Positions 10,654 through 53,968 of a DNA stretch of 64,000 bases are shown here, in pieces. This DNA is from Octopus vulgaris (Eukaryota). How positions within the stretch are numbered: the first letter of the stretch is position 1; the number at the start of each line of letters is the position of its first letter. Position numbers and translations under genes: made by a program. The stretch is taken from the NCBI GenBank assembly GCA_951406725.2, contig OX597817.1:102176001-102240000 (forward strand). Direction: 5' to 3'. The notes under the pieces were generated by a model. The model was not told the origin of the DNA. It saw only the letters and a list, made by a program, of their open reading frames with translations, and searched no databases.

Positions 10654-12332
10654 GAATGAATGAATGAATGTTCGTCCTTCGACTTCGAAGATGACCATTG
10701 ACATCATTTGGTGGAATTGCTGCTGTGAGACCGGAGGTTGCTGGTGAGGTCAATCCGGGCAAGAAAGCCCCTCCCACAGGTGGGGCAGAAGTGGGTAGGG
10801 GCTGTGCTATTGGTGCAGGTGGCTCTGGCTTTCCGCATCTGGCGTTTCTGTTCTGCTGACTGAATCCGTCTCTCCTCGGCTGTCTTTGCTCCTGTGGTGA
10901 TTACGCTGCGCCAGGATGAGCGGTCGGCAGCAAGTGTCTCCCAAGTCTCTGTGCCGATGGAGAAGTCTTTGAGAGAGACTTTGAGACTGTCCTTGAAGCG
11001 CTTCTTCTGCCCTCTGACTTTGCGTTTGCCCTGGCTGAGTTCACCGTAGAAGAGCTGTTTTGGGATGCGAGTGTTGGACATGTGGGAGACGTGGCCTGCC
11101 CATCTCAGCTGGGCCTTGCGCATGATCGTGATGGTGCTAGGGAGATCTGCCTGCTTCAGAACTTCCGTGTCTGGGACTTTGTCCTACCAGCGGATGTGAA
11201 GGAGGTTCCGAAGACACCTGAAGTGGAAGTGGTTTATCTGGCACTCGTGCCTTCGGTAAGCAGTCCACATCTCGCAGCCGTATAGTAGGGTGGTAAGCAC
11301 AACTGCCCGGTAGACTTTCAGCTTGGTGTTGAGGCTGATTCCTCTCCGCTCCCAGACTTTCTTTCGCAGTCTCCCAAACGCGCTGCTTGCCTTGGAGATT
11401 CTGTTGATGATTTCAGCATCTATGTTGGCATTGCAGGAGAGAGTGCTGCCCAGGTAGGTGAAGTTTTCAACCGCTCGTAGGATCCGTCCATTCACCTTTA
11501 TCTGAGGCTCATGGTATTATTTGCCGGGGGCTGGCTGAAAAAATCACTTCGGTTTTCTTGGCACTGATGGTAAGACCGAAGTTTTCACAGGCTGATGAGA
11601 ACCTGTCCATCCCGAGCTGCATCTCCTGCTCATCGATTTCATTAAGGAAGGCTTCAGATGAGTTGCCGTCTTCAAGGACTCTGGCTGTCATTCCGTCGTG
11701 GGACTGGCGGACAATTGCAATAAATTTGCTGGAGCAACCAAATTTTCCCACGACCTTCCAGAGTCCCTCCCTCCTGACTGTATCGAAAGCCCTGGTGAGG
11801 TCAACAAAGGTCATGCAGAGGTCAAGGTGCTGCTCCATGCATTTCTCCTAGAGCTGGTGGGCGGCGAATATCATGTCAGTGGTCCCTTGACCCGCACAAA
11901 AGCCACACTGGCTCTCAGGGAGAAGGCCTTGCTCCAAGTGTTCCAGAAGGCGGTCAAGCAGGACTCGGGCCAGGATCTTGCCTGCTATGGACAAGAGGGA
12001 GATTTCTCGGTGGTTGTCGCAGGACTGCCAATCTCCTTTCCGCTTATAAATGTAGACGATTGTTGCGTCCCGGAAATCTTGAAGGAGTTGTTCCCTGTCC
12101 CACATCGACTGGAACAGGCTGGTGAGCTGACTGATCATGGTGGGGCCACCTGACTTGAACACCTCTGCAGGGATGGCGTCAAAGCCTGGAGCTTTGCCGG
12201 TGGACATTTTTTTGATGGCTCTGCTCACTTCCTTGACTGCAGGGGGAACAGCCAGCTCATGGTTTGTCGGCATCTGGGGGAGTCGTGCGATGGCTTCCTC
12301 ATTGATCTGGGCTGGTCGGTTGAGCACGATGT
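10654..12332 (-). mobile_element. 5'-truncated, internally deleted RTE LINE (RT pseudogene)
   Basis: ORFs with KAPGFD, LLPESQCGF, FVDLTRAFD, FTYLGS, QLRWAGHV and C-terminal CPTC zinc finger; (TTCA)n tail; 14-bp TSD TGAATCTGTTAAAT at 10640-10653 and 12333-12346. Confidence 0.93.
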
Positions 12333-12919
12333 TGAATCTGTTAAATACAATTTAGTTCTTTACGTTTCATAGTTTATTTTATATTTTAAGTGTATATTTT
12401 AGATTGCCTCCAGAAACCTGGAAAATACAGATACTTCCAGTCCCAAGCATGCCAGATAATTGATTTGGTTCCATATTGGTCTTTAAACAAAAGCTCAAGT
12501 ATAACCATCCTTACTACAAAAATCTTGTAATTGCACAGTACTAGTAAGAGCCCCAGAATGGTGTAGATTATGTAATATGTTCCTCTCTCTCTCTTTCTCA
12601 CATACAATAAGCAAGGAACCTCTAAATGCTCACTTCTAGAAACAGAAGCCAAATTTCCTTTAAGCAGTGTTACAATAAACAGAACAGACAGATAGACACA
12701 CATACACAGATAACTGACTTCTATAGTTTCTATCTACCAAATTCTACTCAGTAGGCATTAGTTAACTAGAGGCTATAGCAGAAAGCATTTCTTCCAGGCT
12801 ATCACCAGGTTGTGAAGCAAATATCTTAAGTACAACCTCATGGATATATCTGCATCTAAATGGTAAAATTTAAATATTTTTGTTAGAATATTGGCCTTAC
12901 CACTGAATTATCTGCTTAA

Positions 12920-20522: not shown

Positions 20523-21142
20523 AAACGCCCTGATGCAATACTAGACAGTGGCTCTCGTGACTTCTGATCTTAACTGACTGGAAGTGTTATCATGTACATT
20601 GTTTTGTCTTGGTATAAAAGATGGGCTACAGTAAATATTCTGCTCAATACCACAGATTTGCTTGTCATTTGTTTGACCATAACCAGTTGAGCATGTCCCT
20701 TAGTGGCTGATGATATGTGCATCTCTAATCACAAACAGAAGTAGTGGGGGAGCATCATAGCCATGTGTTGAGAGGAATTTTGTGGGGTTTGAATAATTCA
20801 CCTCTGAAATAATGGGTGTTTCGTTCAATATCCTTAAACAATCCTTATTCAAGGATCTTTGAATAGGATGGGCCACTCGACCTGAAGAAAATGCTAACTG
20901 GGCCTCACCGCAGTTATCTTGATATGAGATCACCATGTCGCGCAAATATTGTTGTGACGCATGTGATGGGTAGTCATGATGGGTATACTTGGCTCCGTAT
21001 ATTTTATCCCAGTGTCACTTTGACGGCATGCACCGCTCTCTCACTCAACAACAACAACAATAATAATAATAACAATAATAATAATAACAGTAATAATAAT
21101 AACAATAATAATAATAACAATAATAATAACAATAATAATAAC

Positions 21143-21182
<40 letters not shown>

Positions 21183-21620: not shown

Positions 21621-22216
21621 TACTAACTTCGGGCATTAAAGTGTGGTTATGCTGGAGCACCACTTTGAAGGGTATTTATTTCATCGGTCTGGTACTTTAT
21701 CGGTCTCTTTGTCCGAATCGCTAGTTTACGGGAACGCAAGCAAACCAATACCGATTGTTAAATGGTGGTGGGAAACAACAAACACACACACACACACATT
21801 TGCAACGGACTTCAACACAGTTTCCATCAACCAAATTCACTCGCAATGAATGTAAATATAGAGGTAAGACAACTGTAAATCAGAATGTAAAGATAAACTT
21901 CAAATAGTAGCTAGAGGGGATATTGTGAAGCACACAGAATATGTACCTAAAGTTGGTCGAAACGAGGTCAAGAGAGTGTGCATGAGATACTCGTCGGGTG
22001 GTACTTTGGTAAGTAGACACCTCAAACTAGCACCCGGAACTAAATTACTCCAGCCTGATATTACATGTAAGTACACTTGAAAAAAAGGCGGAGGGGGACG
22101 TTGAATAGGTAAAGGAAAATGTTTAAGAATATAATCCATATACGGTAAAAATAAACACCAATGCAAACAAGAGCACTCAGAGAGCGCAAACCTCCGCCAA
22201 AGCAACACCAACGTCC

Positions 22217-23898
22217 CGATTTTTTATTACCTACAAGGGGCCAAACATAGATGGGACATTACAAAACAATACAGGACACATACTCGGGGAAATAAAATAC
22301 AGAAAGAAATCGAGTGAAGAAGAAAAATAAAAAAAACGAATGAAAATGATAAAATGAGGCGCAATGCGCACTCGACCCTCGAAATCCAGTGGTTACATTA
22401 CACGTTATTTTGAACAGTTTTGTTTTTCCTTTTTTTTTTAATTGTTCATAGTTTTTTAGGCTTTTCAGCTCTTTATGTTGAATTACGGTTGGTAGAGCAT
22501 CAAACCACACTGGCCCGCCAAATGAAATGAAATACTTTCTATATGTTTTTATAAATGTGTCGTATCTATCCTCATTCAATACTACACACTTCTGTTCTTC
22601 ATTGAAATCCTCCCTAGGCAGTTTCACCCTTATTAATCCCTTCCACTTGGAAATCCTCCTGTCCACATCTACATTCTTTTCCTAGTATACTATGAATGCC
22701 TTATTTCTAAAACGTGTTGTACATTCTCTTCTACTGATTCTCTCGCTTTTGGTTCTGTCTCTACTGTCTGCGTATGTTTGAAGATAGGCGGTTACCTACC
22801 TTTTTTGAGCGTCCTACTGGTCCCTTCGAGTGTTCTCTTGCTTTAGCCTCTTTCCTCCTTTTGGGGCTGACAAACCCGTCACTCCCCTCATTTGCCGCTT
22901 TCGTTCTGTCTTTCTTCGGTTTCATCTCTTCCGTATCCCTAGTGCACTCCATATCGCTTTTGCCGACTCCGTCTTTTATTGCTTCACTTGGTACTCCAAT
23001 CTCCACTTCTTGATCCCTCTCCACAGCCTTCTCACTCCAAGGAGGCTTGTGCTTGGGGCACTGCGTCTTCATGTGGCCTTTCACTCCACATTCGTAACAA
23101 TTTGGTCGGCGTCCCTCAACAATCGCTTTGAGGGATCTCTCTCCCAGAATCTCTATCTGATAGGGGATCCTTTCAATGTCTTCGAAAGTGGCAAAAAGCC
23201 ACATCTCGACTCCGTATTCCCTCTTCCAACTGTCTCAAATTCGGGATTCTCCTCGGTGGCATCCACAACAGCTGTCACCAACTACTCTAGCTTTATTTCT
23301 GGTGGCACCCTTCCAATACGAATGCCTGCCTCTATACGTGGGCAGCAGCGTCACCTTTTCAGTGCATAAAATAGTGGTGGAATGTGAGGCCGTCTCTTTG
23401 GTGGCAAACCTCACCTCCACCGTACCATATTTCTTTCCTCGGCTAACGAAAGTTGTCGTTTTCATCAGGGGTCCCAAACATTCCCCCACGTCATTTTCTG
23501 ATAGAATTTCAATTTTATTGGTAGCGATCGCTTGCGTGCGGTAACACCACCGTCCTATCACTCTTATCCTCGACCGTTTCTTCTGGAGGGACCAGCTTTA
23601 CTGCGTTTCCCTCCCTTTTTTACAAACTGTTCACTTCTTCTTATCTCTTCCACATTTACTATTATCAGTTTCGCGTCCAACGGCGCAGCCGCTCCCACTG
23701 CAACAGTTTTTGCATAGTTCTCCATAATGAAAAACTTACTTTTCACCCCTACAATTGGGAGAAAACAGAAACAAAAACAATCATGCGCGAGTCGCTCAAC
23801 AATGACACAATATCAACAACGGATAACCTCGAAGAGAAAAGCCTCAGCATGCAACAACAATTCAAAACCGTGGTCAAAAGTAACGAAACTCATAGTCT
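22217..23898 (-). mobile_element. ORF1-only Tx1/L1-type retroelement, copy 1 (frameshifted)
   Basis: MENYAKTVAVG...RGKKYGTVEVRF...CCHC knuckle CYECGVKGHMKTQC; 3' end CCCCTTGTAGGTAATAAAAAA; no EN/RT. Confidence 0.8.
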
Positions 23899-23913
23899 GC
23901 AACACCAACGTCT

Positions 23914-25682
23914 ATAATTTTTTATTACCTACAAGGGGCTAAAAGTAGAGGTTGTACATTACAAAGACAATACAAAACACATAATCGAGGAAATAAAAAT
24001 ACAAAAAGAAATCGAGTAAGGATGAAAAATAAAAAGAACGAATGAAAATATGAAAATGATAAAATGAGGCCCAACACCTACTCAACCTCCGAAGTCGAGT
24101 GGTTACATTTAGACATTTTTGGGATATTCCCCCCCCCCCACTTTTTTTGTATAATTTAAAAAGTTCACATCTTCATCATTTTTTTAATATATTGTTCATA
24201 TTAAAAAAAAAATTAAAATCTTTATATTCAATTACGGTTGGTAGGGCATCAAACCACACCGGCTCACCCAATGAAGTTATATAGCTTCTATATGAATTTA
24301 TGAACGTCTCGTATCTATCGACACTCAATATTACACATTTTTCTTCTTCCTTAAAATTCTTCCTGGGTAGTTTCACCCTTATCACTCCTTTCCACATCTA
24401 CATCCTTTTGCTTGTATATTACGTATGCTTTATTTTCCAACCTGTGCTTTATCTTCTCTTCCACCGATTCTTTCTCTCTTGGTTCCGTCTCTACTGTCTG
24501 CGTATGCTTGAAAATAGGCGGCTCCCTACCTGGGGAGTGGGGGGCGTCCTATTTGGTTTTACTGCTGGTTCCTACGAGTGTTCTCTTGATTTCGACTTTT
24601 TCCTCTTTTTGGGGCCGACAAACCCGTCACTCCTTTTCTTTGCCACTTCCGTTCAGTCTTCCTTCGACTTCACTTCCTCTGTATCTCTGGCGCACTCCTT
24701 ATCGCTTTTGCCATCTCTGTCTTTCATTGCATCAATTGGTACACCAATCTCCGCTTCTTCTTGGTCTTTCTCCACAAACTTCTCACTCTGAGGAAGCTTG
24801 TGCATGGGTCACTGCGTCCTCATATGGCCTCTACTCCACATTCGTAACAATTCGGCCGACGACTCTCAACAATTACTTTGAGGGTACTTTCTCCCTCAAT
24901 CTCTATCTCAATGTCTTCGAAAGTGGAAAAAAGCCACATCCCGATACCGCATCCCCACCAGTTTAACGTGTTCGTTCTTCCCACTGATCCCAATTCGGGA
25001 TTCTCCTCGGTGGCAGCCACAACAGTCGCCACCAACCACTCTGTCTTTATTTCTGGTAGCACTCTTACTATTCGAATCCGAACATTACGCTTGCCCCTAT
25101 TCGTGGGCTGCAGCGTAACCTTTTCAGTAGGTAAAATAGTGGTGGAATGTGAGGCCGTCTCTTTGGTGGCAAACCTCACCCCCACCGTACCATATTTCTT
25201 TCCTCGGCCAACGAAAGTTGCCGTTTTCATCAGGGATCCCAAACATTCCTCCACGTCGTCTTCTGATATGATTTCAATTTTATTGGTGGCGACCGCTTGC
25301 GTGCGATACACCACCGTCCTATCACTCTTATCCTCGACCGTTTCTTCTGGAGGGACCAGCTCTACTGCGTTTCCCTCCCTTTTCACAAACTGTTCACTTC
25401 TTATAACATCTTCCATTTTTAACGTTATCTGTTTCGCTTCCAATGGCGTAGCTGATCCCACTGCAGCGGCTTTTGCATAACTTTCCATAATGAAAAAGTT
25501 ACTTTTCAGCCCCACAATGGGGAGAAAACAGCAAAAAACAATCGCGCGCGTGTCGCTCAACAATAATTTTCAAAAAACAGTTTCAATAACAGACAGTCTC
25601 GAAGAGAAAGCCTTCAACATGTAAAAACAATTCAAAACCGTGGTCAAAAATGACGAAACTCACACAAATAAGTTGTTAGTCT
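23914..25682 (-). mobile_element. ORF1-only Tx1/L1-type retroelement, copy 2
   Basis: ORF 24820-25563 (MESYAKAAAV...RRPNCYECG); same 5' UTR and 3' tail as copy 1. Confidence 0.82.
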
Positions 25683-25697
25683 GCGACACCAACGTCC

Positions 25698-27460
25698 TTG
25701 CAGCCGCTGGTTTCGGCCCGGCCTTCCGTGGGTGGATCCACTGCTTTATACAGCGACAGCGAATCGATAGTTCAGGTGAATGGTTTCTTTTCGGAGCCGT
25801 TCTGCATTGAACGATCGATGCCCTCTCTCCCCGCTTTTGTACGTTTTGGCCCTCGAACCATTGCTGAGAAAGTTGGAGGCTATGAGGGGCACTCCGCAAG
25901 ATCTAGGGTGCGGAAAGTCAGCTTCGGCATACGCGGATGACATCACCGTCATCGTATCCCGGGTCGAGCACCTACAGTGGGTAGGTGAAGCCATAAGGGA
26001 TTACAAAGCGGTGGCAGGAGCAAAAATTAACCGGGATAAATCGGTCAGCTTGCTACTCGGAACCTGGAGGGGCAAGTCGATGCCGTCCGACAGCATTGGA
26101 ATCTGGTTAGGTCCGGATTTCCAGATAAAGAAGAAGTGGTGCGAGGTGGCGGGCGGGGTTGCTCTCCTAACTCAAACCTGGTCTGAGCGGAAGCTGTCCC
26201 TGAAAGGGAGGTCGGAGGTCGCAGAGGTGTTTATAGTATTTGTTATTACCTACCGCCTGATCGTCGTCCCTTGTCCCGATTCGTGGCTGAACAAGTTGGA
26301 ACGCATGCTCTTCCACTTTTTGTGGAGGGGCAGGGGACCTCTTGTAAGGCGCTCTATCTGCTGCCAAAAACCACTGAAGGGTGGGATAAGGATGCCATGG
26401 CCAAAAATGCGTTGAGGCTTAGGCACCTCTGGCTTTACCTGGACGGTGAACAGGTGTGGTCTCCGTTCGTCAAGCTGTTATTTTCACGGTTCACATCCTT
26501 TACTGAACTGGACTCATGGATTAAGCGTAGACCGATGTTGGGCGCGTGGCATGCAGAATGTCATTAGGCCCTCGTGCTTCTCTCACAGTCGGGCAATGTA
26601 GTGGCGGGGGTGCTACCTCGTCCTTCTATAGAGGGTTAGTAGAGTTCAAGTGTGACGACGTCCTGGGAGAAACCCTGGGTTCGATAAAGCTCAACTCACC
26701 AGCCTATACCGAAGAACATTTGGGCCAGGGCCTCTGAATAATTACCAGAAGTCCCTGGCATGGCAATGTTACAGAGGCACTTTACCTGTTCGAGATACGC
26801 TTTTTAGACACGGGTCTGCGCCTTCGCCTGCTTGTCCAAGATGCGGGCAGGACAGTGAAACTTCTGCATGCGATTGTGCAATGCTCGAAGGTTTCGGAAC
26901 TCTGGGCTTATTATGTCGAACACTTGCTGTCACATTCGAGAAAAGTACAACTGTCGCGCGAATCTATAATTAAGATTGTTCTGCCGTCCTCCCTAAATTG
27001 GGAAGAGCAGGTTTCTTTTCTCTCGGTAGTTGCTGCTGCGAAGGAGGTAGTATGGAAGACGAGAGTGAAAGGGATTGTGATAGGCATTTTTATCTTCAGT
27101 CTTGGGTTAGTTAACTTTTTCGTTTTCCACATGAAAAGAAAAATATGGCTGGAGAAGAAATGCCTGTCGCAAAGTGGCTTTCGTAAAATATGGAAGTCTG
27201 TGGCAAGTATGTTGAGAGTGAAAGAACCTGTTTAAGCGAGAGCATAAAAAGGAAAAACGAAGTCTTCAGTGTGAGAATGTGGTTTGTGGGGTCAACCACG
27301 TCCTCCGCTTCACTTTATTAATCATACATTCGTATTTTAATTTGAATTTTTAAAATTGATCATTTATACTGTTAATCTCATTCGATCCCCGACCTCTTAT
27401 TTGTTTGTCTGTCCTTGTATCGTCCCCTGTTTCTTTAACCTATATGGTAAATAAAGAAAA
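25698..27460 (+). mobile_element. 5'-truncated Tx1/L1-clade ORF2 (RT and C-terminal Cys domain) pseudogene
   Basis: CPLSPLLYVLALEPLLR, SAYADDITV, GAKINRDKS, LSLKGR, CPRCG...HAIVQC; 3' tail GGTAAATAAAGAAAA. Confidence 0.9.
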
Positions 27461-28715
27461 TGAAGTCGAGTAGTTACATTTAGACCTTATTTTGGACAGT
27501 TTTCTTTTTTTTTTTTTTAAAAAAAGAAAGAGTTCACATTTTGATAATTTTTTTTATATTGTTCATATATATTTTTTGTCTAAAATCTCTCAAATCTTCA
27601 TACTCCACCACGAGCGGCAGGGTATCATACAACACCGGTCCGTCAATCAGTCACCAATTCACGATATGAATTCATGAACACGTCGTATCTTTCGTCATTC
27701 AATAGAAAAACACCTTTCATTCTCCTTGAATTTCTCTCTGGGCAGCTTTATCTTTACTAGTCTCTTCCACTTGGCTATTCTCCTTTCTACCTCTACACTC
27801 TTTACGCAGTAGACTAAGAATGCCTTATGTTTAAATTATTTCTCTCTTGGTTCTGTCTCTACTGAATGCTTGAGTTTAGGCGGCTCCCTACCGTTTTGGG
27901 GGGCGTCCTCTCTGTTTCTGCTGCTGGTCCATGCGAGTGTTCTTTTGATTTCGACGTTTACCTACTTTTGGGGCAGACAAATCCGTCACTCCTATCCTTT
28001 GCCGCTTTCGTTCAGTCTTCCTTCGACTTCACTTCCTCTGTATCTCTGGAGCACTCCTTATCGCTTTTGCCATCTCCGTATTTCAGTGCTTCAATTTTTT
28101 TCTCCAATTTCCACTTCTTGGTCTTTTTCCACAGTCTTCTTACTCTGAGCAGGCTTGTGCTTGGGGCACTGCGTCCTCATATGGCCTCTCACTCCACATT
28201 CGTAACAATTCGGTCGACGACCCTCAACAATTTGGGGGAACTTTCTCCCGTGATCTCTATCTGGTAGGGGATCCTCTGAATGTCTTCGTAAGTGGCAAAA
28301 AGTCACATCTCGACACTGCATCCCCACCAGTTTAACATGCTCGTTCTCCCCACTGGTCCCAATACGGGATTCTCCTCTGGGGAGACCAGCTTTATTGTGT
28401 CTCCCTCTCTTTGCACAAACTGTTCGCTTCTTATTATCACTTCCATATTAATTTTTATCTGCTTTGCATCCAACAGAGTAGCAGCTCTCACTGCAGCGGT
28501 TTTTGCGTAGCTTTCCATAATAAAAGCTAATAAAAGCTCCCCACAATGGGAAGAAAAACAGAAAAAGAAAAACCAGTTACGCACGAGTCACTTCAACAAT
28601 AATTTTAAACAGTAATATAAAACAATTTTAACAACGGACAGTCTCAAAGAGAAAGTCCTCAACAATCCAACCGTGGTCAAAATTGACGAGACTCAAACAA
28701 ACAAGTTGTTACTCC
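27461..28715 (-). mobile_element. ORF1-only Tx1/L1-type retroelement, copy 3 (internal deletion, 3' tail missing)
   Basis: MESYAKTAAV...CYECGVRGHMRTQC; LVSPEE fused directly to NPVLG. Confidence 0.8.
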
Positions 28716-29689
28716 GAGACACCAATGTCCTCTAGCCAGAGATGATTTTTAAAATGAGAATATCTGAAATAAAAATCGACTGCTCTCGCAAACGAGATTA
28801 CTAAAAATGAACCCGAAAGCTCTCAAAGATTAAGTAAAAAAAAAACGGAAAAATAATCCAGAATCCTTGTCCGGTACCGGATCGATCTCAAAATCTAATC
28901 AGTTCGTGACAGTCAGGAGGCCAAACATCACTGAAAGTTTCATCCGAACCCATTCAGTAGTTTTTGAGCTATCTTGTTCACGAACAAACAAACAAACAAA
29001 CGCGACTGGAAACAATCCCACCGCTTTGGCGAAGGCGGAGGTAATGAAAACGAAAGGTGTGCGTGTGTGAAAGTTCTATCAATGGAGGAGCTCTGAAGAG
29101 AATCTAGCTATAACGAGAAGCAAAAGAATAGATCTGTATACAGAAATCACAAGGGTGTGTAGAAACATGCGAATTCAGAAGACTGACGTCTAACATCAAG
29201 AGAAGGGCAATGTCATATTTAATGTTTAGTGGGAAGTAAGCGCACAAATCATATTTTTATTGGTTGGTTGAGAGGAATGGGCCCCATGATATTTGCTGGT
29301 CCTCTCAGTTGGCATGATTGATTGTTGCAATCGATGTGCAGCCTGAATGTCTGCAGAAAAACGTAGGGAGAGAAAGAACCACAGTTTTCCGGTTCAAATA
29401 CTTGCAACAAAATTACTCTGTGCTAAGGCACCTAAGTAGCCCCTAGATTGTCGCCGATGTGTAGTAAAAGCTACAGAGAGGTGTAAGAACAGATATGTGC
29501 AAAAGCCACATTAATTTACAATAGTGGGCAAATTCAGAAATCATAAGAACGTATTGTAGATGAATGCGATTCACATCAATGTACAGCTGCGCCGACACTG
29601 AACAGTTGTCCAGGGGTCCATACAAGTCTTGGGACTCAATCCTAATGAATATATGCAGTTGCTGGGAATCAATAAATAAATACTGGCGC

Positions 29690-53403: not shown

Positions 53404-53968
53404 TCATCATCATCATCGTTTAACGTCCGTTTTCCATGCTAGCATGGGTTGGACGGTTCGACCGGGACCCGGGAAGCCAGGTGGCTGCACCAGGCTCCAG
53501 TCTGATCTGGCAGTGTTTCTACAGCTGGATGCCCTTCCTAACGCCAACCACTCCGTGAGTGTAGTGGGTGCTTTTTACGTGCCACCGGCACAAGGGCCAG
53601 AGGAGGCTGGCAAACGGCCACGATCGGTTGGTGCTTTTACGTGTCACCGACACGGACGACAGTCAGGCGGCGCTGGCATCTGCCACGTTCGGACTGTGCT
53701 TTTAACGTGTCACCGGCACGGGTATCCTAAATACAATTTCCATTTGATTTTCATTTTGATGTTGGTGTTGACGTACGTAACTCAATAGGTCTCCTCAAGA
53801 ACAGTGTGTCACTCTAAGATCTAAGGTTAGCACAGTAGGCCGTCCTGCGAGCCATGAACTCACTTCATTTGTCAGGTTTTTGAAGTCACAGCATATCTCC
53901 AGAGGTCTCGGTCCTTCGTCATGTACTCTGTGAGGCTCAACGTACGAAGGTCATTGACCACCTCGTCA
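53404..53968 (-). mobile_element. RTE LINE 3' fragment
   Basis: Highly similar to 39173-39920. Confidence 0.85.

What the first reader, a model, noticed from the sequence alone, without database searches (positions are those of the whole stretch)
22202..28730. Site-specific stack of Tx1-type retroelements at one 15-bp target inside another transposon
Seen: GCAACACCAACGTCC and variants recur exactly at every unit boundary (22202-22216, 23899-23913, 25683-25697, 28716-28730). Removing everything between the first and last appears to rejoin a non-autonomous DNA element. The units are clearly diverged from each other, arguing for independent serial insertions rather than recent tandem duplication. 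Known: Tx1-clade elements are often sequence-specific, and Xenopus Tx1L targets the Tx1D transposon. Inference: a possibly undescribed transposon-targeting family.
Basis: partly seen in the sequence, partly recalled or inferred. Interest (0 to 1): 0.8.

Follow-up and report, generated by a model that had tools for sequence, protein, structure and literature searches.

The report
Half-LINEs stacked inside octopus Helentron-like repeat
In an octopus-type genome, three short decayed jumping genes that carry only a predicted RNA-binding gene sit head to tail at one 15-base spot inside a very common small DNA repeat, a spot their relatives also occupy elsewhere; they likely borrowed a full-length LINE's enzymes and likely rebuilt the landing site with each insertion, a new combination of known habits.

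Summary
Empty hosts with a single motif are abundant (100-219 contigs per listed row). Other copies of the element's 3' tail abut the same host site in all 4 runs laid.

The stack is three minus-strand ORF1-only units (up to 1.8 kb, one zinc knuckle, no reverse transcriptase). The third interval also holds a 5'-truncated L1/Tx1-group LINE in the opposite orientation, which replaced that unit's tail. Its 3' UTR is homologous to the units' tails, so the units likely arose from this lineage by loss of ORF2. The host is a ~375-bp Helentron-like non-autonomous repeat.

Units 1 and 3 have closer relatives elsewhere than next door, which favours separate insertions; unit 2 is a mosaic. Tx1 versus L1 placement is inconclusive, and off-target copies could not be counted.

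Each ingredient is known: transposon-targeting Tx1, tandem SINEU-3, HAL1/HeT-A. I did not find the combination in eight literature searches. This scan noted what looks like the same system on other DNA of this genome (four unchecked AI notes). Verdict: new variant of a known kind.

The parts
22165..22216 (-). 3' end of the Helentron-like non-autonomous host: terminus ...CTTGTTT, hairpin 22173-22187, 9-bp subterminal repeat 22190-22198, target motif 22202-22216
   Evidence: Sequence; loose ends before 22165/22166 in 137-281 contigs per row, A-rich and heterogeneous, agreement 0.44-0.49; hairpin in the MFE fold but not beyond shuffles, z -0.38; subterminal repeat position
22202..22216 (-). Motif copy 1, host-type target at the 3' junction of unit 1
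22217..23898 (-). Unit 1: ORF1-only retroelement. ORF1 from 23725, frameshifted, one CCHC knuckle; T-rich 3' UTR ending AATAAAAAA, no long poly(A)
   Evidence: zf-CCHC E 1.4e-4; tblastn to intact O. bimaculoides ORF1 P0110; alignment A1
23899..23913 (-). Motif copy 2, between unit 1 5' end and unit 2 3' end
23914..25682 (-). Unit 2: ORF1-only retroelement, ORF1 from 25488. Mosaic: middle closer to unit 3, ends closer to unit 1
   Evidence: 58% identity to P0110, O. bimaculoides CCHC protein; mosaic test 1 of 1000 permutations
25683..25697 (-). Motif copy 3. Its last 4 bases on + (GTCC, 25694-25697) double as in-frame RT codons of the LINE fragment (microhomology)
25698..27461 (+). 5'-truncated L1/Tx1-group LINE in opposite orientation: end of RT, CPRC zinc-finger region, stop at 27235, 3' UTR homologous to the units' 3' UTR
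   Evidence: RVT_1 E 4.8e-9; Argonauta hians hit 57%; human L1 ORF2p best PDB hit; UTR alignment 0 of 2000 shuffles
27462..28715 (-). Unit 3: ORF1-only retroelement with a ~340-bp internal deletion and ~180 bp of tail missing; ORF1 from 28518; 5-nt overlap GAAGT (27462-27466) with the LINE fragment's end as seen in other contigs
   Evidence: table 8
28716..28730 (-). Motif copy 4, at the 5' junction of unit 3
28731..29047 (-). 5' part of the host: body, (AAAC)n 28983-29001, short inverted repeat, subterminal repeat 29034-29042 a few bases from a T-rich terminus; 8 bp short next to the motif relative to most empty hosts
   Evidence: summed contig depth 5.7e4-5.9e5 in bin 28782-29025, dropping to 1.8e2-1.4e3 in the next bin

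Best explanation
Three ORF1-only retroelements sit head to tail, separated by copies of a 15-bp motif, inside a high-copy Helentron-like repeat, and they were likely inserted one after another by target-primed reverse transcription using the endonuclease and reverse transcriptase of a related L1/Tx1-group LINE. Shown: the motif exists once in empty hosts; other family copies end at the same host base; the units share their 3' UTR with an ORF2-bearing LINE; units 1 and 3 have closer relatives elsewhere than next door. Inferred: the partner's endonuclease nicks just beside the motif; the shared tail recruits its RT; each insertion leaves a motif at both ends (a duplication of about 12-15 bp, with the last 3 bases possibly supplied by the element's own 5' end), so the site is rebuilt and reused. 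The inverted LINE fragment is likely an atypical insertion with microhomology at both ends that deleted unit 3's tail up to the nick position.
For: Empty hosts: loose ends behind 22216 in 121, 219 and 130 contigs (X2, X3, X7; agreement 0.77-0.84); joint 22216->28733 in all 4 runs. Filled hosts elsewhere: loose ends before 23899 give the host 3' end in 3, 4, 6 and 4 contigs (agreement 0.73-0.85). One per run may be this locus's own unit 1 junction, but the consensus differs from the window. At 22217, 7, 6, 9 and 6 contigs carry T where the window has C. Other 5' ends are followed by the motif in 4 contigs of X3. Shared 3' UTR: scores 102 and 75, 0 of 2000 shuffles each. Closer relatives elsewhere: about 91% vs 81% (unit 1, 22656-23075), 89% vs 71-74% and 85% vs 77-79% (unit 3). 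Unit 1 vs unit 3 ORF1 has 26 synonymous codon changes against 16.8 expected (27 and 31 of 3000 simulations). Precedent: tandem SINEU-3 copies sandwiching a TSD inside Mariner-N4_AMi are read as sequential insertions (PMC4494074, passages).
Against: The selection signal is absent for unit 1-2 (24 vs 24 expected) and unit 2-3 (14 vs 14-15 expected) once the substitution spectrum is matched. For unit 2 the one listed other-locus contig at 25282-25698 (68 differences in about 420 letters) is no closer than unit 1 (86.5%). Unit 2 is a mosaic, which recombination between copies also explains. Loose ends before 23918 (4, 5 and 3 contigs; agreement 0.58-0.61) are mixed and may include off-target copies; only 24 of 255 rows were shown, so specificity has no denominator. 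No endonuclease and no intact partner lies in the window. The only ORF2 piece is inverted and not at a canonical junction, so its role as partner is not shown.
Confidence: 0.75

Rival explanations
1. One or two founder insertions occurred at the site, and the stack grew by DNA recombination (unequal exchange or gene conversion with copies here or at other loci), not by repeated retrotransposition.
For: Unit 2 is a mosaic: 51 of 79 informative sites in columns 725-1297 group it with unit 3, against 41 of 133 outside (1 of 1000 permutations). Unit 1-2 and unit 2-3 divergence looks neutral. All three units are full-length at the 5' end.
Against: Units 1 and 3 are 8-15 points closer to copies elsewhere than to neighbours. 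Unit 1-3 shows a synonymous excess. Template switching during reverse transcription also makes mosaics (established knowledge, recalled).
Confidence: 0.13
2. Hitchhiking: the element landed in the host rarely, and the rolling-circle host then copied itself with the cargo, so the same junction at many loci reflects one old event and not targeting.
For: The host is very abundant and Helentron-like; Helentrons carry internal cargo (PMC4067079, abstract passage). Filled sites are few per run (3-6 contigs).
Against: It does not explain unit 2 ending precisely at the motif beside unit 1's 5' end, where no other host sequence is present. Host flanks at filled sites differ between contigs and from the window.
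Confidence: 0.07
3. The motif is only the element's own 5' end; the elements insert with loose preference, and the host match is a local coincidence.
For: Position 3 of the motif is G at the 5' ends of units 2 and 3 and in 4 other contigs, but A in the host consensus. Mixed loose ends before 23918.
Against: Hundreds of empty hosts carry the motif, and 3' tails abut motif plus host in 4 of 4 runs.
Confidence: 0.05

Closest known systems
Tx1-Mar LINEs and SINEU-3 in Mariner-N4_AMi of crocodilians (Kojima 2015, PMC4494074; passages and section 15 read, supplements not read)
   Same: Non-autonomous passengers with a presumed Tx1 partner insert at one site in an abundant DNA transposon; tandem copies sandwich a TSD and are read as sequential insertions; orientation relative to the host is fixed per site.
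   Different: Passengers here are 1.7-1.8-kb ORF1-coding elements, not U-snRNA-derived SINEs; the host is Helentron-like, not Mariner; the genome is a cephalopod's.
Xenopus Tx1L in Tx1D, and Tx1-9_AMi in Harbinger (as described in PMC4494074; the original Tx1L paper was not read)
   Same: LINE-type element targeted to a fixed position in a DNA transposon.
   Different: Those are autonomous elements in cut-and-paste hosts. Here the stacked copies lack ORF2, and Tx1-clade placement was inconclusive.
HAL1, HeT-A and Ag-Sponge: ORF1-present non-autonomous LINEs (PMC5786205 and PMC5753468, passages)
   Same: Only ORF1 is encoded; 5' and 3' parts of a LINE are kept; mobility depends on a partner. 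HeT-A also forms head-to-tail arrays (recalled).
   Different: The listed examples derive from L1, Jockey and CR1; no Tx1-derived example is named in the passage read. HAL1 is not described there as site-specific, and HeT-A adds to chromosome ends, not to an internal site in a transposon (recalled).
HINE / DINE-1-like non-autonomous Helentrons (Thomas et al. 2014, PMC4067079, passages) - for the host
   Same: Subterminal inverted repeats, short inverted repeat at the 5' end, 3' hairpin, internal microsatellite, T-rich insertion sites, no coding capacity, high copy number.
   Different: Subterminal repeat is 9 bp in this copy (11-15 in the paper) and 24-33 bp from the 3' end (38-60 in mite HINEs); no autonomous Helentron partner was examined.
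Tandem TE dimers by insertion-site preference (McGurk and Barbash, bioRxiv 10.1101/158386; abstract and outline only)
   Same: Repeated insertion at a preferred site yields head-to-tail tandems.
   Different: General Drosophila phenomenon; no ORF1-only passengers in a transposon host are described in the abstract.

Membership tests
L1/Tx1 group of non-LTR retrotransposons (ORF2 fragment) | RT most similar to L1-type ORF2p, with N-terminal AP endonuclease and C-terminal zinc finger in full-length relatives | tested here: met
   RVT_1 hit; best PDB hit human L1 ORF2p E 1.4e-10 against R2 E 0.03; full-length relatives carry PF03372+PF00078+PF13966
Tx1 clade | RT groups with Tx1L, Keno, Kibi rather than with L1 | tested here: inconclusive
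   Relative P0005 scores 295 bits to one TX1-labelled protein (P0556) and 253 to human L1; the window fragment scores 44.5 and 43-44.5. No authentic Tx1L sequence was available and no tree was built.
Tx1 clade | Target sequence preference | tested here: met
   For the ORF1-only units: same host base in 4 of 4 runs. Fraction on target not measurable; not tested for the ORF2-bearing element.
Tx1 clade | ORF1 with CCHC knuckle and RRM-like RNA-binding region (feature recalled) | tested here: met
   zf-CCHC in units 1 and 3 and in P0110; Atlas neighbours include ZCCHC3 RNA-binding and RRM clusters, scores 0.88-0.92, TM 0.40-0.52, a lead only
Tx1 clade | Sequence-specific AP endonuclease that nicks the target | not testable with these tools
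   No endonuclease sequence in the window; no genome held
ORF1-present non-autonomous LINEs (HAL1, HeT-A, Ag-Sponge type) | Encodes ORF1 only, no ORF2 | tested here: met
   Units 1 and 2 run from 5' motif through ORF1 to a 3' tail in 1.7-1.8 kb; ORF2 queries hit only the 25694-27223 fragment within the stack, apart from one weak opposite-strand extension
ORF1-present non-autonomous LINEs (HAL1, HeT-A, Ag-Sponge type) | 3' part shared with an autonomous LINE | tested here: met
   3' UTR alignment to the ORF2 fragment, 0 of 2000 shuffles for both units
ORF1-present non-autonomous LINEs (HAL1, HeT-A, Ag-Sponge type) | Multiplied as a family, with ORF1 under selection | tested here: inconclusive
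   Multiple copies in contigs; synonymous excess in 1 of 3 pairs under a matched null
HINE / DINE-1-like Helentron (host) | Subterminal inverted repeats of 11-15 bp | tested here: inconclusive
   9-bp perfect repeat at 22190 and 29034 in this one copy
HINE / DINE-1-like Helentron (host) | Short hairpin near the 3' end, microsatellite, no coding | tested here: met
   Hairpin 22173-22187 in MFE fold, not significant against shuffles; (AAAC)n at 28983-29001
HINE / DINE-1-like Helentron (host) | Insertion into T-rich sites with T-ending termini | tested here: met
   Flanks at 22165/22166 are A-rich on + and heterogeneous in 137-281 contigs per row; absence of TSD not tested
HINE / DINE-1-like Helentron (host) | Autonomous Rep/helicase partner with the same ends | not testable with these tools
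   No genome held

The most novel reading that the evidence does not exclude
A Tx1-derived family of ORF1-only elements whose own 5' terminus completes a copy of the landing site, so every insertion builds a working target in element rather than host context. This gives self-extending, HeT-A-like chains at an internal site beside the 3' end signal of a rolling-circle transposon, with an endonuclease that needs only the 12-15 bases on one side of its nick.
Probability: 0.4. Interest if true: 0.65.

Novelty: new variant of a known kind. Interest (0 to 1): 0.45.

Why it matters
It would add a rolling-circle element to the known transposon targets of Tx1-type LINEs and add Tx1 to the lineages that spawn ORF1-only passengers. 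The same short motif is used in host context and in element context, so it gives a natural test of how much sequence a site-specific AP endonuclease needs. For annotation it warns that octopus 'Helitron' and 'L1-Tx1' counts include nested chains. It does not change a principle: all ingredients have precedents, and these copies are decayed.

Tried and rejected
No whole genome is held, so the genome-wide flank table could not be made; contigs of 6 of 24 listed runs were laid instead. No RNA holder was listed, which says nothing about expression. Collection scans found nothing: host+motif in viral contigs and metagenome contigs; P0110 in metagenome contigs, 155 pattern hits, none confirmed. Rfam: 0 matches in the window. 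Raw dN/dS of 0.54, 0.36 and 0.66 was rejected as evidence on its own; a spectrum- and CpG-matched null kept only the unit 1-3 pair. A single-breakpoint mosaic test was weak (80 of 2000); the two-breakpoint test held. Twin priming was rejected for the third interval, because the inverted piece lies on the 3' side in either orientation (sequence). A simple internal inversion was rejected because unit 3 has the ORF1-only UTR. Attempts to obtain named Tx1 references gave one labelled protein among the 120 listed and none among cluster members. RNA-editing lead from earlier notes: private A>G vs T>C on the sense strand is 20/6, 13/3 and 15/10, with G>A as frequent (22, 16, 24); clustering was not tested; inconclusive. 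The four other <=3-mismatch motif hits in the window are outside any host copy. Tail folds of units 1 and 2 were not better than shuffles.
Full report
Observation. The motif lies at 22202, 23899, 25683 and 28716 with 0, 1, 1 and 3 mismatches. The window holds 10 matches at up to 3 mismatches against 0.95 expected, and 0 of 100 shuffles reach 10. Two extra matches are homologous positions inside the units; four lie outside any host copy. Self-comparison shows 22202-23912 and 23899-25696 as direct copies (76% with gaps), and 27462-28731 as a third, deleted copy. Identity over aligned columns is 83%, 76% and 80%. The interval 25698-27461 does not match the units' coding part.

Anatomy. Units 1, 2 and 3 lie on the minus strand. 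Each starts right after a motif and carries a decayed ORF1 with one CCHC knuckle. The best relative among 270 hits is an intact 453-aa Octopus bimaculoides protein at 58% identity; other named hits are O. sinensis and O. vulgaris. The genome is therefore octopus-type. Units 1 and 2 end in a T-rich UTR with AATAAAAAA a few bases before the next motif and contain no ORF2. Interval 25698-27461 is a plus-strand, 5'-truncated LINE: RVT_1, best named hit Argonauta hians at 57%, best solved relative human L1 ORF2p. Its 3' UTR aligns with the UTRs of units 1 and 2 (scores 102 and 75, 0 of 2000 shuffles each; over the last 70 bases only, 13 and 4 of 2000). So the units likely descend from this LINE lineage by loss of ORF2.

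The inverted LINE piece. Its 5' end overlaps motif 3 by GTCC, which reads in frame as RT codons. Its 3' end meets unit 3's UTR; contigs from another locus align through 27466 in all 4 runs, giving a 5-base overlap (table 8). About 180 bp of unit 3's tail are missing. I infer an atypical insertion with target deletion at a break placed at the motif edge. It is not a regular member of the stack, and this boundary has no motif.

Host. The flanks form a repeat of about 375 bp with a 9-bp subterminal inverted repeat (22190, 29034), a 3' hairpin (not significant against shuffles), an (AAAC)n tract and T-rich ends. These match most features given for HINE/DINE-1-like Helentrons (PMC4067079, passages); the subterminal repeat is shorter than described. 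Summed contig depth is 1e4-6e5 over host bins and mostly 1e1-2e3 over unit bins (not a copy number). The motif lies 3 bases from the 3' subterminal repeat.

Test 1, empty hosts. No genome is held, so contigs of 6 of 24 listed runs, with four organism labels, were laid. The joint 22216->28733 occurs in 21, 20, 26 and 16 contigs. Loose ends behind 22216 read TCTCAACGATTAGCC in 121, 219 and 130 contigs of X2, X3 and X7; no such row for X1 was among the 24 of 4748 shown. Empty hosts with one motif are common. The window's host lacks 8 of these bases beside motif 4.

Test 2, other copies. On 23740-24130, 240, 277, 206 and 144 contigs were laid. Loose ends before 23899 give the host's 3' end in 3, 4, 6 and 4 contigs. 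One per run may be unit 1's own junction, but the consensus differs from the window. At 22217, 7, 6, 9 and 6 contigs carry a base that the window lacks. Four X3 contigs show a 5' end followed by the motif. Against: loose ends before 23918 (4, 5 and 3 contigs, agreement 0.58-0.61) are mixed. They may hold degenerate motifs, off-target copies, or a far more abundant repeat that shares bases 23920-23950. Only 24 of 255 rows were shown, so no on-target fraction can be given.

Duplication or element-borne motif. Position 3 is A in the host consensus and in motifs 1 and 2, but G in motifs 3 and 4 and in the four other 5' ends. Two other-locus records begin matching at 23902, the 12-bp core (table 8). 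This fits a duplication of about 12 bp plus three element-borne bases that resemble the target, with motif 2 explained by CpG decay (inference). A plain 15-bp duplication of G-bearing host alleles is not excluded. Either way unit 2 ends at a motif whose other side is element, not host.

Serial insertion or duplication. Contigs from other loci are closer than neighbours for unit 1 (about 91% vs 81%) and unit 3 (89% vs 71-74%; 85% vs 77-79%). For unit 2 the listed contig is no closer than unit 1. Raw dN/dS is 0.36-0.66, but a spectrum-matched null supports selection only for the unit 1-3 pair (26 vs 16.8; 27 and 31 of 3000) and not for the other two. Unit 2 is a mosaic (1 of 1000 permutations). 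Serial insertion from at least two source lineages is favoured; recombination contributed, at RNA or DNA level.

Mechanism. Shown: single motif in empty hosts, shared junction at several loci, ORF1-only anatomy, shared tail. Inferred from established LINE biology: a partner endonuclease nicks beside the motif, the RT copies the RNA from its tail, and the join leaves a motif at both ends, ready for reuse. Direction of growth could not be determined. Confidence 0.75.

Comparison. Tx1-clade elements that target DNA transposons are known: Tx1L in Tx1D, Tx1-Mar in Mariner-N4_AMi, Tx1-9_AMi in Harbinger; tandem SINEU-3 copies sandwich a TSD at such a site (PMC4494074; passages and section 15). ORF1-only LINE derivatives are known from L1, Jockey and CR1 (PMC5786205, PMC5753468; passages). 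Tandems by site preference are general (bioRxiv 10.1101/158386, abstract). The O. vulgaris annotation lists L1-Tx1 and Helitron families; the terms 'target' and 'nested' do not occur in its main text (PMC13282606, passages). Eight searches listed no paper whose title or abstract start describes ORF1-only Tx1 elements or a Helitron-type target. Repbase, Dfam, subscription journals and all supplements were not seen and may hold the family. Tx1 versus L1 placement is inconclusive: 295 vs 253 bits for a full-length relative, equal for the window fragment.

Earlier notes of this scan describe what looks like the same system elsewhere in this genome. They are unchecked AI notes and no evidence. My ORF1-only and Helentron reading was stated before I saw them. 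They gave me the paper PMC5786205, the RNA-editing lead (inconclusive) and the 'rebuilt site' wording.

Verdict. Real feature, first reading supported with a corrected anatomy; new variant of a known kind; interest 0.45.

Noticed in passing
window:23920-23950: The last ~30 bases of the unit tail draw summed contig depth of 1.3e4-1.4e5, about 50-100 times the rest of the tail, with recurring variant letters. A very abundant repeat, possibly a SINE, shares this tail end; it has no copy elsewhere in this window.
   Followed up: partly
window:28731-28732: The host lacks 8 bases next to motif 4 compared with most empty hosts; other short-deletion variants of the host exist (tables 5 and 5c). Could be a host variant or loss at the 5' junction.
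   Followed up: partly
window:25854-27317: The ORF2 coding fragment draws depth of 1e3-1e5, but the bin with its 3' UTR only 39-335: many related LINE families, few copies with this tail.
   Followed up: no
window:27390-27466: The LINE fragment's tail end folds into a stem-loop, z -2.76, 3 of 200 shuffles; the unit tails do not stand out.
   Followed up: no
window:38181-38903 and 11647-12339 (minus): Two other, distant RT remnants, 23-26% identical to the ORF2 relatives.
   Followed up: no
window:18048-18425 (minus): An open frame that resembles a hAT/SPIN-type transposase piece (label recalled; no Pfam hit).
   Followed up: no
window:20500-21605: Two diverged copies of a ~500-bp repeat separated by an (AAT)n/(AAC)n tract at 21045-21182, just left of the host.
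   Followed up: no
window:39521-39535 and 53757-53771: Two near-identical ~60-bp stretches of another repeat, each with a 3-mismatch match to the motif.
   Followed up: no
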